A stretch of 40,000 nucleotides of DNA from Rhodococcus sp. BP22 (GTDB lineage: Bacteria > Actinomycetota > Actinomycetes > Mycobacteriales > Mycobacteriaceae), in contig NZ_JACFTB010000006.1 of assembly GCF_014281965.1 (NCBI RefSeq), positions 140,113 to 180,112 of the forward strand, in the 5' to 3' direction. Both the position numbers and the translations under genes were made by a program. The notes under the pieces were generated by a model. The model saw only the letters and a program-made list of their open reading frames with translations. It did no database searches and was not told the DNA's origin. How positions within the stretch are numbered: the first letter of the stretch is position 1; each line of letters begins with the position of its first letter. Of this stretch, positions 6,575 through 26,901 are shown one piece after another.

Positions 6575-6612
6575 GTGCCCCCAGTCGGACTCGAACCGAC
6601 ACTTGACGGATT
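6575..6612. repeat. att-type direct repeat, left copy (displaced 3' half of the tRNA, discriminator side to anticodon loop)
   Basis: gtgcccccagtcggactcgaaccgacacttgacggatt is identical at 38/38 positions to 26864-26901. The sequence diverges immediately outside on both sides. Confidence 0.95.
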
Positions 6613-7300
6613 CATGCGTAACCACCAGCACACCCTTTTTGCCGCGTTCTCAGGCGTAAAGCCGATCGTCGGTTGCTTAGCGCCTAAGGCCGTTTGAAGC
6701 CCTGTTACAGTCGAAATAGCTTGCACACCAGTATGTGTAGATCTATCGCGAAAAGACGCGTCAGAGCTGTTCTGCGTTGCACCAGTGGCTATGCCAGCGA
6801 GCTTTGTCTGTTCGACAGTCGTGTAATCGTTTGTACTCAGCCCTTTGCCGGCCACCTTGTCGACCTTCGTGGCGTTGATCGCCCCCTGGGCAGTTGAGAC
6901 CGGTTCACCGGCATCCGACGTGTTATCCACATTCCCTAGGCCAATCTGACCCTTGGTGACTTAGTGCGGGTTATCTGTTGCAGACGTGTGGATAACTAGT
7001 GCCGCCTGTGCAGAACTCGCTATGGATGCGTCCTGTGCGTCGACGTACGACCTGTCGGCCTTGGCATCAATAGCATCTTCGATGTCAGTCAGCGTCTTCG
7101 CCGTGACCCTGCCATCACCTTCCATCCTGCAGCAACCTGCATCGGCGTACTGCACTCATGGGCACGGGTGATGGTCAGTAGGTTGCCGTCGAGCTACGGA
7201 GGTAGCCAATTTCGGCATTGTCATGGGTAGGCAGCTCAACAGCGTCAGAGAACACCGTCACCGGCATGTTCGGCTGGAAGCGTGTGCCATCACCGGGCAT
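6613..7300 (-). pseudogene. Phage minor-tail/tail-fibre-like gene, broken by two frameshifts and an in-frame TAA, 3' end cut at the island border
   Basis: Minus-strand pieces, each in a different frame:
- MPGDGTRFQPNMPVTVFSD...NAEIGYLRS
- LDGNLLTITRAHECSTPMQVAAGW
- GRVTAKTLTDIEDAIDAK...HTSATDNPH, then TAA at 6961-6963, then VTKGQIGLGNVDNTSDAGEPVSTAQ...GLSTNDYTTVEQTKLAGI

The motifs NPH-VTK-GLGNVDNTSD-KPVS and GLSxNDYT-KL-GI are recurrent in actinophage tail fibres. No native stop occurs before the att repeat. Confidence 0.6.
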
Positions 7301-7569
7301 CAGCGTAAAGCTCTCCCCCGTTGTCGAGGGGGATGTGGGATCTGGACTGTGCCGATCAAGAGATTTACGTGAGAGTCAAACGATGCCATCTATCACTAAT
7401 AAAACACATTACGACTGTCGACACCAGATGCCATTCTATCGCAGCAGATCAAACTCAGTCATGAGGACAAAGCGAGCCAGAGCAAACGATATGCCCACTA
7501 GTGCGGTCTCAATTAGCGCTGCGGTGTAAACCCACCGCCTGCAATTGCAACTATCGAAAAAGATCCAAT

Positions 7570-8019
7570 CTACCCGAACAGCCCGACCGCAACCGTAATG
7601 TAAGCAGCGCGCCGGTCCTGGTACGATTCTAGGTTTCTCGCTTTTCGTGTAGCCCCCTTTATCTGATAAAACGGGACAACAATGTACTGGACTTCCAACT
7701 CGTCCCCTGAGTTTAGACAGTCCGCGGTTACGCTCGGTTGAATATCAGGCGTCGTGGCCGCCGATACTATCTGCTTCATGTCCCCCTTTTGTCCAACTTT
7801 GATATGCAATACGTTTCGCAGCTCGAACATCGTGTCGCCGTCGGCCTTCGCGCCTGTCTCAACCATCCGCTTAGCAACGTGAGGGTGGCAATCGTCGAAG
7901 TAAGCGGCAATCGCTTGCTCTAATTCGAACGTTGCCTTGAATCTTAAAGGGCGCCCGCCCGCCTGCATGTTTAATTTCTCAGTTATTTGATCTGCAATAT
8001 AAGCATCTATTGATGGCAC
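7570..8019 (-). CDS. Hypothetical protein; N-terminus resembles a phage terminase small subunit / DNA-packaging HTH
   Basis: 149 aa encoded in AT-rich DNA. GGRPLRFKATFELEQAIAAYFDDC matches the GRPxxF...EL...I..YFxxC opening of many TerS proteins. The remainder of the protein is unrecognised. Confidence 0.45.
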   Translation of the reverse strand: MPSIDAYIADQITEKLNMQAGGRPLRFKATFELEQAIAAYFDDCHPHVAKRMVETGAKADGDTMFELRNVLHIKVGQKGDMKQIVSAATTPDIQPSVTADCLNSGDELEVQYIVVPFYQIKGATRKARNLESYQDRRAAYITVAVGLFG

Positions 8020-8042
8020 AAACGCATGATTTTGTACAGAGT

Positions 8043-8516
8043 TTAGTTCAGCATGTACTCGTACTGAGGACAGTAAGCGTTGACCGCAGCACCGATTGTG
8101 TAGCTCGCTTGATCAGTCGTTAGTCCCGATCCTGTACCCGCTGCCTGGTAACGCCGAATATCGACGCCTGAATCTAGGCCATCGCAGATCCCGTGAGCGA
8201 CAGTCAAGGCGTCGGCTTCCTCCCCCACAGGGACACCGCCCAGTCTGAGGTTGGTCAAGTAAACCTCGTCAGGATTGTAGTCGACACCAGGAACCATGTC
8301 TTCCGGATTCATGGGTGCAGGTGGCGCCGGCACAATATCGATCGACTCACTTGGCCACGACCTGCTGGCTGTCGGCGAATCGGACGACGCGTTGTCCTGG
8401 CCCTCACCTCCCGAGCATGCCTGAACAATCGCAAAGATGATCAAACCGATGATGCACACCACGATCAAGACCGGCTTGAAGTTCAAGTTCTCCGCGGCGT
8501 TGCTCTTGTTTGCCAT
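8043..8516 (-). CDS. Membrane-anchored DUF732-like protein
   Basis: 157 aa with an N-terminal TM helix (PVLIVVCIIGLIIFAIV) and a low-complexity linker. The C-terminal segment YLTNLRLGGV...ALTVAHGICDGLDSG...YTIGAAVNAYCPQY fits the DUF732 pattern, which has two conserved Cys. Confidence 0.6.
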   Translation of the reverse strand: MANKSNAAENLNFKPVLIVVCIIGLIIFAIVQACSGGEGQDNASSDSPTASRSWPSESIDIVPAPPAPMNPEDMVPGVDYNPDEVYLTNLRLGGVPVGEEADALTVAHGICDGLDSGVDIRRYQAAGTGSGLTTDQASYTIGAAVNAYCPQYEYMLN

Positions 8517-8774
8517 TGGTTCTCCTAAATCGGTGAGTTACTATGCCGATCGCGAGAACAGTCGAAAACGTTACTTTTCTATTGTATAAACATCACGAAT
8601 GTGTTATATTAATAATCCAAATATGATAGTAAACTACAACACATACATTAACCTCAGATAAACCCTTGATTCCTTATTAAGTTGTCATAAATTGCCATGA
8701 GACATTCGAGTTGTAAAGTCAATAATATTTTTCGAAATGCAATCGAGTTATTCACAGATTCTGCACTTAAATGA

Positions 8775-25288: not shown

Positions 25289-25528
25289 CAGAACACAATC
25301 GCGTCGACGCTGTCCCCCAATCGGAGGACTGAGTCCATGGACAAAGTGCTGGATTTAAGATTTCGCGAACAGCGGCACGCCGCGCTGGCATTACTGACCA
25401 GCTCGAAGCTGGGAGGTGGATCCGGCGGAGTGCTCGGAAATGCGGAACATCGAACCGATCCTGCAGCTTCGTGCCAGGAGCTTGGACGACCCCGGAGTCG
25501 CTGAAAGCCTGACAGACCGGTTGGCAGT

Positions 25529-25577
25529 TGTCGATGTCGGCCAGTGTGGTGGACGACCGGGCTGGCCGACATCGACA
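25529..25577. terminator. Perfect 16-bp stem / 17-nt loop hairpin between convergent mcrC and the ART-like gene
   Basis: tgtcgatgtcggccag (25529-25544) pairs base-for-base with ctggccgacatcgaca (25562-25577). There is no U-tract, which is common for actinobacterial terminators. Confidence 0.45.
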
Positions 25578-25814
25578 TTCTCAGCGCCTCAGAATGATTG
25601 GAGAGCTGACAGCAAACTGCCAGTCTCCGACACAGAGCAACCCATAGCGGTAGCGCCGCAAGTCATCTTGGTTCGCCGCCATAGAGCTCGGTGGCGGTGA
25701 CGACGTAGCGAACGCCATACTCACCTACAGCGTCGGCTACTCTCTGCGCTGCGCAGACCGTGCAGCCGGCTTTGCTGTATCTATAGACAGATCGTTCGGG
25801 TATCAACATTGCCC

Positions 25815-26582
25815 CTACCCCATGTCCTTGATTGAACGGCCGCGCGGGCTGGAGCCGGGCCGACCACCTGTCTTCTTCTTCGGCGACGGGGTCTCGGACT
25901 TTCGAGCCGCGCGCCGGGTGCCGACGACCGCCGCGACACCTTTTCGTGGACTCCTTCGAGGAGTCTCACGTTTCACTGCTGTCTTCGCCGTTGGTTTCTC
26001 AGCTGATGACATCCTCGGCGCCGCCCGGAATGAGTCTTCAGACCGCACCTTTGACTGGCCAGTCACCTGTACCACCTGCGAGTCGAACAGGTTCAGCTGG
26101 TCGTGATACAACGAGTCACACGCCACCCTCTCGATCGCCAGCCCCTCCGTTTCGATCACGTACGTATCCTCACCGCTGTCGTTCAGATATGCGTAGAGGC
26201 GTTCGGGCTCGACTGAAGCCGAGAACACCTGTTCGCAATGACATCCGTTGAACGGGCTCGGCGCGAACCGCTCCGCTTTTTCCTTGATGCTCGTCCATGA
26301 CATGCCAAACTTCTGAGACTCCACACAGCCTCGGTACAGCGTCATACCCTCAGTGGGGCGTAACGATCGATGCCCATTACTGATGTAACCAGTTCTTCCG
26401 AACAGCTCGACCCAATGACGTTTCTCCATCACCATCTCGGGGAAGTCGAACATTCCCCACGCGTCGTGCAGCGCCAGCGCAAGGTCAAAAAGATCCTCAA
26501 AGCTTCCTAGCCGAAAGGGTGGGTATCTACCTCTCGGTGAGTATCGGTGGAGCTTCGACAAAGCAGCTAAGGCAATCGGCAT
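25815..26582 (-). CDS. Putative ADP-ribosyltransferase-like protein (R-S-ExE motif set) with a basic Lys/Pro/Arg, AT-hook-like C-terminal tail
   Basis: The candidate motifs are LFGRTGY or TLYRG (Arg), FGMSWTSIKEKAERFA (an STS-like strand plus A..FA helix) and YVIETEGL (E-x-E). The tail is AEKPTAKTAVKRETPRRSPRK...PKKKTGGRPGSSPRGR. The start is uncertain (26582 or Met44 at 26453) because the 5' end overlaps the integrase remnant on the other strand. Confidence 0.35.
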   Translation of the reverse strand: MPIALAALSKLHRYSPRGRYPPFRLGSFEDLFDLALALHDAWGMFDFPEMVMEKRHWVELFGRTGYISNGHRSLRPTEGMTLYRGCVESQKFGMSWTSIKEKAERFAPSPFNGCHCEQVFSASVEPERLYAYLNDSGEDTYVIETEGLAIERVACDSLYHDQLNLFDSQVVQVTGQSKVRSEDSFRAAPRMSSAEKPTAKTAVKRETPRRSPRKGVAAVVGTRRAARKSETPSPKKKTGGRPGSSPRGRSIKDMG

Positions 26583-26895
26583 CTCCGACTTGATCCCTCA
26601 CGAACTCCGGCACACAGCGGCGTCGCTCGCGATCCAGTCCGGCGCGAATGTCAAGGTCGTCCAGCGGATGCTCGGACACAAATCCGCGACCCTGACGTTC
26701 GATCTCTACGGGCACCTCTACGCAGATGACCTCGACAGCGTCGCCGATGCACTCGACCGTGCCGGAAGAGAGTTCGTCATGCCCGCTGCGGACTCTCTGC
26801 GGACTGGGTCGGACGGAAAGAGTCACTTGAGCGAATCCCAGAACTCTGACCTGGACTTAGACGGTGCCCCCAGTCGGACTCGAACCGACACTTGA
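26506..26895 (+). pseudogene. Tyrosine-integrase remnant (C-terminal ~1/3 only) abutting the tRNA
   Basis: SRKGGYLPLGEYRWSFDKAAKAIGISDLIPHELRHTAASLAIQSGANVKVVQRMLGHKSATLTFDLYGHLY retains H-x-x-R, His and the Tyr nucleophile. The N-terminal domains and the first catalytic Arg are absent. The upstream frame is not protein-like and is occupied by an opposite-strand gene. Confidence 0.75.
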
Positions 26896-26901
26896 CGGAT
26901 T
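26864..26901. repeat. att-type direct repeat, right copy (forms the 3' half of the intact tRNA)
   Basis: Identical at 38/38 positions to 6575-6612. Confidence 0.95.

What the first reader, a model, noticed from the sequence alone, without database searches (positions are those of the whole stretch)
6575..26901. ~20.3 kb mosaic island in a tRNA gene, bounded by a perfect 38-bp repeat, apparently immobilised
The 38-mer gtgcccccagtcggactcgaaccgacacttgacggatt is present at 6575-6612 and at 26864-26901. It corresponds to the tRNA from just past the discriminator base to the anticodon loop, which is the classical attB/attP core for tyrosine integrases.

The intact tRNA is at the right end. The left copy is the displaced 3' half, still followed on the - strand by a hairpin that probably was the tRNA terminator.

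The contents are heterogeneous in composition and origin: AT-rich phage debris at 6.6-9.3 kb, an IS3 element, a second intact integrase, and defence-type cargo. This suggests accretion of more than one element. I saw no third copy of the att core by eye.
Basis: partly seen in the sequence, partly recalled or inferred. Interest (0 to 1): 0.6.

Follow-up and report, generated by a model that had tools for sequence, protein, structure and literature searches.

The report
Decayed gene island in tRNA-Leu
A 20.3-kb block of foreign genes, including a McrBC DNA-restriction system, was inserted into a leucine tRNA gene of a Rhodococcus-like bacterium and has since lost most of its own insertion enzyme; this is an ordinary kind of event, but the block is only the inner part of a roughly 30.7-kb two-part array.

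Summary
The 38-mer lies at 6575-6612 and 26864-26901, and these are the only two exact copies in the genome. The right copy is the 3' part of the only tRNA in the window, tRNA-Leu(UAA). The left copy is not part of a tRNA.

The 20.3 kb between the copies is compositionally foreign (GC 57.8% against 62.2%). I found no match for most of it in the 46 other species of the genus. It is a mosaic of:
- a single-copy IS3 element;
- an intact Cre/Xer-like recombinase;
- a McrBC pair 80% identical to genes on Rhodococcus plasmids;
- other cargo.

The integrase next to the tRNA is cut down to its last ~110 residues, and the genome holds no close paralog. "Immobilised" is therefore a fair inference, though untested.

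Two points need correction. The predicted empty site (isochorismatase, tRNA, ppx) was not found in any genome searched. Compared with the closest relative, 30.7 kb is extra. A degenerate third att copy lies 3.7 kb before the window start. "Phage debris" is not supported.

This is a known kind of element: tandem accretion of decayed islands, CIME-like. The scan has already reported the same kind at tRNA-Leu genes in other genomes.

The parts
1..6574 (+). Window part of the outer module, a metabolic cluster: GntR/FCD regulator, family III CoA-transferase, hydantoinase/oxoprolinase A and B, isochorismatase. The module continues upstream of the window to C31:136432 (two SDRs and an HMG-CoA-lyase-like gene). 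It ends at a degenerate att copy at C31:136395-136431.
   Evidence: Pfam hits. Absent from G001 and G022. The G001 synteny break is at C31:136244. Composition is native-like: GC 61.7%, tetranucleotide distance at the 11th percentile.
6521..6546 (.). Hairpin with an 8-bp stem, lying between the isochorismatase gene and the displaced tRNA end.
   Evidence: Fold. Not called as an intrinsic terminator. The 31 nt at 6544-6574 resemble the sequence behind the same tRNA in other species (69-nt matches; alignments).
6575..6612 (+). Distal att copy (attR): the displaced 3' part of tRNA-Leu(UAA), identical to the copy inside the tRNA.
6613..10138 (-). Low-GC (48-55%) left end of the island. It holds a DUF732 protein (8043-8516), a GIY-YIG_2 nuclease (9380-9985) and ORFs with no family hit.
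   Evidence: In the genus there are only scattered matches of 70-79% identity.
10139..11452 (-). IS3-family insertion sequence: orfA 11051-11353, orfB 10203-11054, 25-bp terminal inverted repeats. Single copy in the assembly, with no target-site duplication.
   Evidence: 91% identical to IS copies on Rhodococcus qingshengii plasmids.
11589..12626 (+). Intact Cre/Xer-like tyrosine recombinase (int2, 345 aa). It is not next to an att copy.
   Evidence: Pfam Phage_integrase plus SAM_1. Aligns end to end with Cre, with counterparts of R173, K201, H289-x-x-R292 and Y324. An 86% homolog sits in the same small module on another contig.
13298..13350 (+). Conserved non-coding block downstream of int2. 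It contains a 9-7-9 inverted repeat.
   Evidence: 96% identical to locus L068, while the surrounding DNA is about 78% identical or unalignable. Single copy in the genome.
15785..20231 (+). Co-directional cargo cassette: DUF6642 protein, a 379-aa protein with no family hit, a DUF732-containing protein and a PD-(D/E)XK_4 nuclease.
   Evidence: weak PADLOC hit to candidate system PDC-S26. No DNA match in the genus. One 70% match among 400 genomes of the family.
22314..25288 (+). McrB-like AAA+ GTPase (about 22437-24203) and McrC (24200-25288): a type IV restriction pair.
   Evidence: Pfam AAA_5 and McrBC. NCBIfam McrB E 2e-66 and McrC E 2e-82, both below the equivalog cut-offs. 80% nucleotide identity to plasmid pDK1 of Rhodococcus sp. 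DK176 and three other Rhodococcus plasmids (DK17, DK180, JS3073).
25815..26582 (-). 255-aa ORF with no family hit. It occupies the place where the N-terminal three quarters of the integrase should be, and overlaps the stump by about 100 bp.
   Evidence: One weak PHROG hit.
26485..26832 (+). Stump of the cognate tyrosine integrase (int1), reading towards the tRNA. It keeps the H-x-x-R, His and Tyr motifs but lacks the first catalytic Arg and Lys and the whole N-terminal part.
   Evidence: Pfam positions 129-169 of 172 only. Three-frame translation. 65% identical to residues 320-426 of a 430-aa open frame in G005 that also abuts an att copy. Related stumps sit beside the same tRNA in G018 and G062.
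26863..26938 (-). tRNA-Leu(UAA), 76 nt with a short variable arm. Bases 26864-26901 are the proximal att copy (attL core).
27115..28215 (-). Ppx/GppA phosphatase gene: conserved chromosomal flank on the right.
   Evidence: Syntenic with the tRNA in G001 and G022 (95-96% identity) and in about 18 further species of the genus (tRNA and ppx matches a few hundred to about 1,700 bp apart on one contig).

Best explanation
The region is the tRNA-proximal, younger module of a tandem array of integrated elements at the single tRNA-Leu(UAA) gene.

How it arose (inferred):
- A tyrosine integrase recombined an element-borne attP with the tRNA gene. The attP carried a copy of the tRNA's 3' part, from the anticodon loop to the 3' end.
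- This rebuilt an intact tRNA at one junction (26864-26901) and left the displaced 3' part at the other (6575-6612).

What is shown:
- The two junction copies are present and perfect.
- The integrase gene beside the tRNA has lost its N-terminal ~75%.
- An IS3 element has inserted without a target duplication.
- The cargo is patched together from unrelated sources: a Cre/Xer-like recombinase module, a McrBC cassette and a low-GC end.

Mobility (inferred): there is no cognate integrase in cis, no close paralog in the genome, and no recognisable excisionase, replication, transfer or phage structural gene. The island probably cannot move by itself. It corresponds to a CIME-like remnant, which could at most be mobilised by an incoming element of the same att specificity.

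The outer module: behind the island lies an older, integrase-less 10.3-kb metabolic module. It ends in a decayed third att copy (31 of 38 bases) just outside the window. The whole lineage-specific insertion is about 30.7 kb.
For: Repeat and tRNA geometry:
-.

Integrase stump in the expected place and orientation:
-.
- A full-length relative in G005 abuts a 92% copy of the same core.

The same tRNA segment is used as att elsewhere:
- Two annotated Mycobacterium abscessus prophages carry it at both ends, with an unrelated integrase.

Foreign composition of the inner module:
- GC is in the lowest 0.5% of 20-kb windows; tetranucleotide distance is at the 99th percentile.

Not found in relatives:
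- Window 12600-26500 has no match in the 46 other species of the genus.
- 6613-10138 gives only scattered weak hits.
- 13600-22400 gives one weak hit among 400 genomes of the family.

Mosaic origin:
-.

No close integrase paralog:
-.

No excisionase, transfer or phage structural families:
-.

Outer module:
- G001 and G022 lack it.
- The G001 synteny break is at C31:136244, 150 bp from the degenerate att copy. That copy has the same orientation and is the only further BLAST hit to the core in the genome.
- The cluster is not adjacent to this tRNA in any of the seven species that have it.

Concepts:
- Definition of CIME and of tandem accretion: PMC5704250.
Against:
- No genome searched shows the exact pre-integration site.
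- The outer module is compositionally native and carries no mobility gene. It could therefore be old chromosome that G001 and G022 lost.
- The degenerate att copy is only moderately significant taken alone (E 8.8e-4). Its flank shows no significant similarity to the flank behind the tRNA in other species.
- A perfect 38-bp repeat sits oddly with a badly eroded integrase. Related stumps in G018 and G062 are about as diverged as the core genes, which hints that the stump may be older than the repeat.
- int2 is intact, and I cannot exclude that it acts on the island.
Confidence: 0.75

Rival explanations
1. Only the 20.3 kb is an island. The 10.3-kb metabolic cluster is ancestral chromosome. The common ancestor of G001 and G022 lost it by a deletion that ended next to the tRNA. 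The degenerate outer copy is chance or an unrelated old scar.
For: - The outer segment has native-like GC and tetranucleotide usage and no mobility genes.
- The 31 nt left of the middle copy resemble the sequence behind the tRNA in nine other species, at the same offset.
- G001 shows other indels nearby.
Against: - None of the roughly 20 other species examined has the cluster beside this tRNA.
- Gain in one lineage is at least as parsimonious as loss.
- The G001 break lies within 150 bp of a same-orientation 31/38 copy of the core, which a random deletion would hit rarely.
Confidence: 0.25
2. The island is still mobile. It is either excised in trans by an integrase of the same specificity arriving on another element (a true CIME), or moved by the intact Cre/Xer-like int2.
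For: - attL and attR are perfect over 38 bp.
- Islands with similarly eroded stumps but different cargo occur at the same tRNA in G018 (9.9 kb, with a distal att copy) and G062.
- int2 keeps all catalytic residues.
- An int2 homolog travels with a McrBC pair and a homolog of ORF 21104-22030 in a Rhodococcus erythropolis island.
Against: - The genome has no close paralog of int1.
- int2 is 14 kb from attL and 5 kb from attR, and has no repeat of its own around it.
- The stumps in G018 and G062 carry frameshifts or stops and start at different residues. That fits independent decay rather than a conserved functional unit.
Confidence: 0.12
3. The 38-bp repeat is not an integration scar. It is a local partial duplication of the tRNA end, as made by small structured modules that copy tRNA 3' ends. 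The DNA between the copies would then be unrelated to the repeat.
For: - Earlier follow-up reports of this scan describe such modules behind tRNA genes in other phyla.
- A conserved flank of about 120 nt with a tRNA-like hairpin follows this tRNA in nine species.
Against: - The copies are 20.3 kb apart.
- An integrase stump abuts the tRNA.
- The DNA between the copies is compositionally foreign and lineage-specific.
- Prophages use the same core.
Confidence: 0.03

Closest known systems
Tandem accretion of integrated elements and CIMEs (cis-mobilizable elements); ICESt1/ICESt3-related islands of Streptococcus thermophilus, reviewed in PMC5704250
   Same: - The element keeps attL and attR but has lost its own integrase.
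- A further att-bounded module is stacked behind it at the same target gene.
- The module next to the target gene is the youngest.
   Different: - No trace of conjugation or mobilisation genes, so descent from an ICE or IME is not shown.
- The target is a tRNA 3' half in an actinobacterium.
- An unrelated intact recombinase sits inside the island.
- Trans-mobilisation is untested.
Integrase-mediated integration into the 3' half of tRNA genes by actinobacteriophages and prophages: M. abscessus prophiGD02-2 and prophiGD90-1 at the same tRNA-Leu(UAA) segment; Omega at tRNA-Leu(CAA), PMC10865867
   Same: - The common core covers the tRNA from the anticodon arm to the 3' end, and integration rebuilds the tRNA.
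- prophiGD02-2 carries a 48-bp copy of the same segment at both ends.
   Different: - The prophage integrase is only 33% identical to the stump over 64 residues.
- The island has no phage structural or lysis genes.
Defence islands carrying McrBC type IV restriction systems
   Same: - McrB-like AAA+ GTPase plus McrC as a two-gene cassette.
- The cassette sits beside a PD-(D/E)XK nuclease and other small cargo on a mobile-element scaffold.
   Different: - The part of the McrB-like protein N-terminal to the AAA+ module has no family hit.
- Scores are below NCBIfam equivalog cut-offs.
- No function was tested.

Membership tests
tRNA-integrated genomic island made by a tyrosine integrase | Direct repeat equal to the 3' part of the target tRNA, one copy inside an intact tRNA | tested here: met
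tRNA-integrated genomic island made by a tyrosine integrase | Integrase gene at the tRNA-proximal end | tested here: inconclusive
   Only the last ~110 residues remain. A full-length relative sits next to the same core in G005.
tRNA-integrated genomic island made by a tyrosine integrase | Absent from close relatives, and compositionally atypical | tested here: met
tRNA-integrated genomic island made by a tyrosine integrase | Excision to a circle and a repaired attB | not testable with these tools
The empty-site pattern was not found in metagenome contigs.
CIME (cis-mobilizable element) | Retains attL and attR | tested here: met
   Perfect 38-bp copies.
CIME (cis-mobilizable element) | [quoted passage not shown] | tested here: inconclusive
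   The cognate integrase is truncated and no transfer genes were found. However, an unrelated intact recombinase is present.
CIME (cis-mobilizable element) | Derived from an ICE or IME and mobilised in cis after accretion with a functional element | not testable with these tools
   No conjugation remnants were seen, and no functional partner element exists in this genome.
Prophage or prophage remnant | Phage structural, packaging or lysis genes | tested here: not met
   A PHROG scan of ten ORFs gave only three hits to families of unknown function. The Pfam scans found none.
McrBC type IV restriction system | McrB AAA+ GTPase followed by McrC nuclease | tested here: met
   Pfam AAA_5 and McrBC. 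NCBIfam McrB E 2.3e-66 and McrC E 2.2e-82, both below the equivalog cut-offs.
IS3 family insertion sequence | orfA (HTH_Tnp_1) and orfB (rve) between terminal inverted repeats, with a 3-4 bp target duplication | tested here: inconclusive
   The ORFs and 25-bp inverted repeats are met. No target duplication is present: GTTA on one side, GGCT on the other.

The most novel reading that the evidence does not exclude
The islands with eroded integrase stumps at tRNA-Leu(UAA) in G000, G018 and G062 are not independent wrecks. They would be a family of integrase-less elements that are still moved in trans, keeping only the att sites and the 3' end of the integrase gene (perhaps because it holds arm-type sites). 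That would explain a perfect 38-bp repeat beside a long-dead integrase. A variant reading: the Cre-like int2, with its conserved 53-nt site, is a small self-contained module that carries defence cargo between islands.
Probability: 0.1. Interest if true: 0.45.

Novelty: new member of a known kind. Interest (0 to 1): 0.25.

Why it matters
Mainly for annotation. The report sets the true limits of the lineage-specific DNA at this tRNA: about 30.7 kb in two att-bounded modules, not 20.3 kb. It shows that the tRNA-Leu(UAA) gene is a recurrent integration site across this genus. It also places a McrBC system and several uncharacterised cargo genes on a decayed mobile scaffold. It does not open a new question. 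It is one more example of tandem accretion and decay of islands at a tRNA gene.

Tried and rejected
- Exact-protein look-ups to find other strains with or without the island. Isochorismatase, McrC, hydantoinase B and Ppx gave nothing. The CoA-transferase gave only one 2-kb contig.
- Collection scans. I searched for the joined "empty site" in metagenome contigs, the attR junction in genome contigs, and the G001-type junction in genome contigs. All returned nothing.
- G001's spacer. By eye, I thought the 135-bp spacer between gene X (the last gene shared with G001, L030:7042-8010) and the tRNA in G001 was a remnant of the same integrase end. BLAST with short words found no significant similarity to any part of the array, so I dropped that idea.
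- The CTGACCTG motif. I tried to use it near the tRNA end as a marker of integrated elements. With one mismatch allowed it also matches the other flank type, and most such flanks have no integrase within 3 kb that my three integrase queries could detect. I therefore make no claim about the motif.
- An att site for int2. I looked for repeats around int2 here and around its homolog in R. erythropolis. None was convincing.
- A possible solo IS3 end at 14603-14621. It does not continue as an inverted repeat.
- The neighbours of the metabolic cluster in seven other species do not map to one place in this genome, so they do not settle where the cluster came from.

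
Full report
**Where the window lies**

The window is G000:C31:140113-180112 of a 4.48-Mb, 62.2% GC draft genome. Three things point to a Rhodococcus-group member of the Mycobacteriales, and this is an inference:
- the IS element and the McrBC pair match Rhodococcus plasmids at 80-91% identity;
- an int2 homolog comes from R. erythropolis;
- DUF732 proteins are present.

**The observation**

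- The 38-mer occurs exactly twice in the window, at 6575-6612 and 26864-26901 on the same strand. No further match appears with up to three mismatches, and none in shuffles. It also occurs exactly twice in the whole genome.
- The window has one tRNA, tRNA-Leu(taa), at 26863-26938 on the minus strand (Rfam 63 bits).
- Read on the tRNA strand, the repeat starts at the base after the anticodon. It runs through the anticodon-stem 3' strand, the short variable loop, the T arm, the acceptor 3' strand and the discriminator, to one base beyond.
- The left copy is not part of a tRNA.

**The integrase next to the tRNA**

- In the + frame ending at 26832, about 30 bp from the repeat, there is the C-terminal end of a tyrosine recombinase. 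It has the H-x-x-R, His and Tyr motifs.
- It matches residues 320-426 of a 430-residue open frame in species G005 at 65% identity. Nothing upstream (24000-26500) matches the first 319 residues.
- That G005 gene also abuts a 92% copy of the same core.
- Where the N-terminal part should be, there is a 255-aa ORF on the other strand with no family hit (25815-26582).
- The genome holds eight tyrosine-recombinase matches, but none is a close relative of the stump.
- I found no excisionase-like, replication, transfer or phage structural family in any ORF scanned.

So the element lacks what it would need to move by itself. This is an inference from gene content, not a test.

**Foreign and mosaic**

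Composition:
- The 20.3 kb has 57.8% GC, in the lowest 0.5% of 20-kb windows of the genome.
- Both halves lie at the 99th percentile of tetranucleotide distance.
- The chromosomal flanks lie at the 15th-22nd percentile.

Relatives:
- No other species of the genus (46 searched) matches window 12600-26500 at the DNA level, apart from the integrase stump.
- The left end, 6613-10138, gives only scattered hits of 70-79% identity.
- Among 400 genomes sampled across the family, the central cargo gives a single 70% hit to one gene.

Pieces with different relatives:
- A single-copy IS3 element at 10139-11452, with 25-bp inverted repeats and no target duplication. It is 91% identical to IS copies on R. 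qingshengii plasmids.
- A small module of int2 plus an 87-aa ORF plus a conserved 53-nt block. It is shared with one other contig at 78% nucleotide identity, but the block is 96% identical.
- A McrB-McrC pair 80% identical to genes on plasmid pDK1 of Rhodococcus sp. DK176 and three other Rhodococcus plasmids. In pDK1 the neighbouring genes are different.

int2 aligns end to end with Cre and keeps all catalytic residues. It is far from both att copies and has no repeat of its own around it.

"Phage debris" is not supported. The only phage-library hits in 6.6-9.3 kb are two families of unknown function hit by a DUF732 protein.

**The island is part of something larger**

The two closest genomes are G001 (complete) and G022. 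They match the right flank from the very end of the tRNA onwards at 95-96% identity.

- On the left, G001 is collinear with G000 only up to C31:136244. That is 3.9 kb before the window starts. In G001 this point lies 135 bp from the tRNA.
- G000 therefore has 30.7 kb where G001 has 135 bp.
- G001 and G022 lack that cluster altogether.
- Seven other species have it at 78-83% identity, but never next to this tRNA.
- At C31:136395-136431, 150 bp from the G001 break, lies a third copy of the core in the same orientation. It matches 31 of 38 positions with one gap. It is followed by the same two bases (CA) as the middle copy. It is the only further hit to the core in the genome.
- Its variable-loop bases (TGCA) are closer to the G001/G022 form of the tRNA (TGTA) than to the form now in G000 (TTGA). 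That is what one expects of the original tRNA end displaced by a first integration.

My reading is a two-step accretion: first the metabolic module, then the 20.3-kb module, which sits next to the tRNA and has the perfect repeat.

The weak points:
- The outer module is compositionally native and has no mobility gene.
- The flank of the outer copy shows no significant similarity to anything.

I put about two in three on this part. The main rival is loss of an ancestral cluster in the G001/G022 lineage.

The 31 nt left of the middle copy resemble the sequence that directly follows this tRNA in nine other species, at the same offset: 16 of 20 in the best local alignment, and 80-86% over 69 nt in BLAST. 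No genome available to me has that arrangement.

**A busy site**

- In 22 species of the genus, the DNA right behind the tRNA falls into at least two unrelated kinds.
- Several genomes hold three to six copies of the tRNA 3' part spread over tens of kilobases.
- G018 has a 9.9-kb unit with a related integrase stump at the tRNA. Its slightly decayed distal copy is followed by a 426-aa ORF in the position expected for the next element's integrase; I did not check its identity.
- G062 also has a related stump.
- The stumps begin at different residues (about 281, 289 and 320). Those of G018 and G062 carry frameshifts or a stop. I read them as independent decay. Deletions that remove an integrase cannot run into a single-copy tRNA gene, so short remnants next to it are what random deletion would leave.
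- Their divergence (76-82%) is close to that of the neighbouring core genes (78-81%). An old, vertically inherited stump therefore cannot be excluded, and that fits poorly with the perfect repeat in G000. This is unexplained.
- Two annotated M. abscessus prophages carry a 48-bp copy of the same tRNA segment at both ends, with an integrase only distantly related to the stump. The segment is thus an established attachment core.

**Comparison with what is known**

The structure matches the published scheme of integration, decay to an element that keeps attL and attR but not its integrase (CIME), and accretion of a further element at the same site (PMC5704250). Integration that rebuilds a tRNA from an attP-borne 3' half is standard for actinobacteriophages (PMC10865867). 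I cannot show descent from a conjugative or mobilisable element, nor any mobilisation, so I use "CIME-like" as a description, not as a membership claim. The scan has already reported the same kind of array at tRNA-Leu genes in other genomes.

**Verdict**

The limits of the acquired DNA and the predicted empty site need correcting, and the phage label should be dropped. This is a new member of a known kind, of low to moderate interest.

Noticed in passing
window 26863-26938; G000:C29:415167-415243: Both UUR-reading leucine tRNAs of this genome (anticodons UAA and CAA) are 76-77 nt with a short variable arm. The three CUN readers are 84-89 nt. Textbook bacterial tRNA-Leu has a long variable arm. 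The same short form of the UAA tRNA's 3' part is in M. abscessus.
   Followed up: partly
window 13298-13350: A 53-nt non-coding block downstream of int2 is 96% identical to another contig (L068), where the surrounding DNA is about 78% identical or unalignable. It contains a 9-7-9 inverted repeat (TCCGATAAG, 7 nt, CTTATCAGA). It could be a recombination or regulatory site for int2. It is single copy in the genome.
   Followed up: partly
L031, L034, L037-L041 (about 120-190 nt behind tRNA-Leu(UAA) in nine species): A conserved non-coding flank follows the tRNA. It starts with a hairpin that looks like a tRNA anticodon arm (GCGGA-TCTGAAA-TCCGC) and ends in a GGATCCATATGGAC palindrome at the tRNA 3' end. 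It has no Rfam family. It may be an old tRNA-derived scar or a small structured element.
   Followed up: partly
G007:C1:721951-755623 (L070, L071): Three copies of the tRNA-Leu(UAA) 3' part lie 20.9 and 12.7 kb apart. Two are identical to the G000 38-mer, and they share flanks. No intact tRNA is nearby, and they are about 270 kb from that genome's tRNA-Leu/ppx locus. This looks like an island array detached from its tRNA, perhaps by rearrangement.
   Followed up: partly
L069 (R. erythropolis GCA_002091935.1, MJVD01000071.1:170849-191931): An island next to tRNA-Gly(ccc) combines a 57% homolog of int2, a 45% homolog of window ORF 21104-22030, and a McrBC pair. These genes seem to travel together in more than one island.
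   Followed up: partly
window 10135-10142 and 11450-11457: The IS3 element has no target-site duplication (GTTA on one side, GGCT on the other). One of its junctions may therefore be a deletion or recombination joint. Homology of the int2 module with L068 starts 55 bp to the right of the IS.
   Followed up: partly
window 17926-17959: A perfect tandem duplication of a 17-bp unit lies at a gene junction in the cargo cassette.
   Followed up: no
G000:C4:42311-43247: A 315-aa tyrosine recombinase frame lies about 400 bp from tRNA-Lys(ctt). This is probably another tRNA-integrated element in the same genome.
   Followed up: no
G000:C31:123223-125865 and 130208-130214 against G001 (L027): Two further indels between G000 and its closest relative lie within 15 kb to the left of the array. 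One is 2.6 kb present only in G000; the other is 6 kb present only in G001.
   Followed up: no
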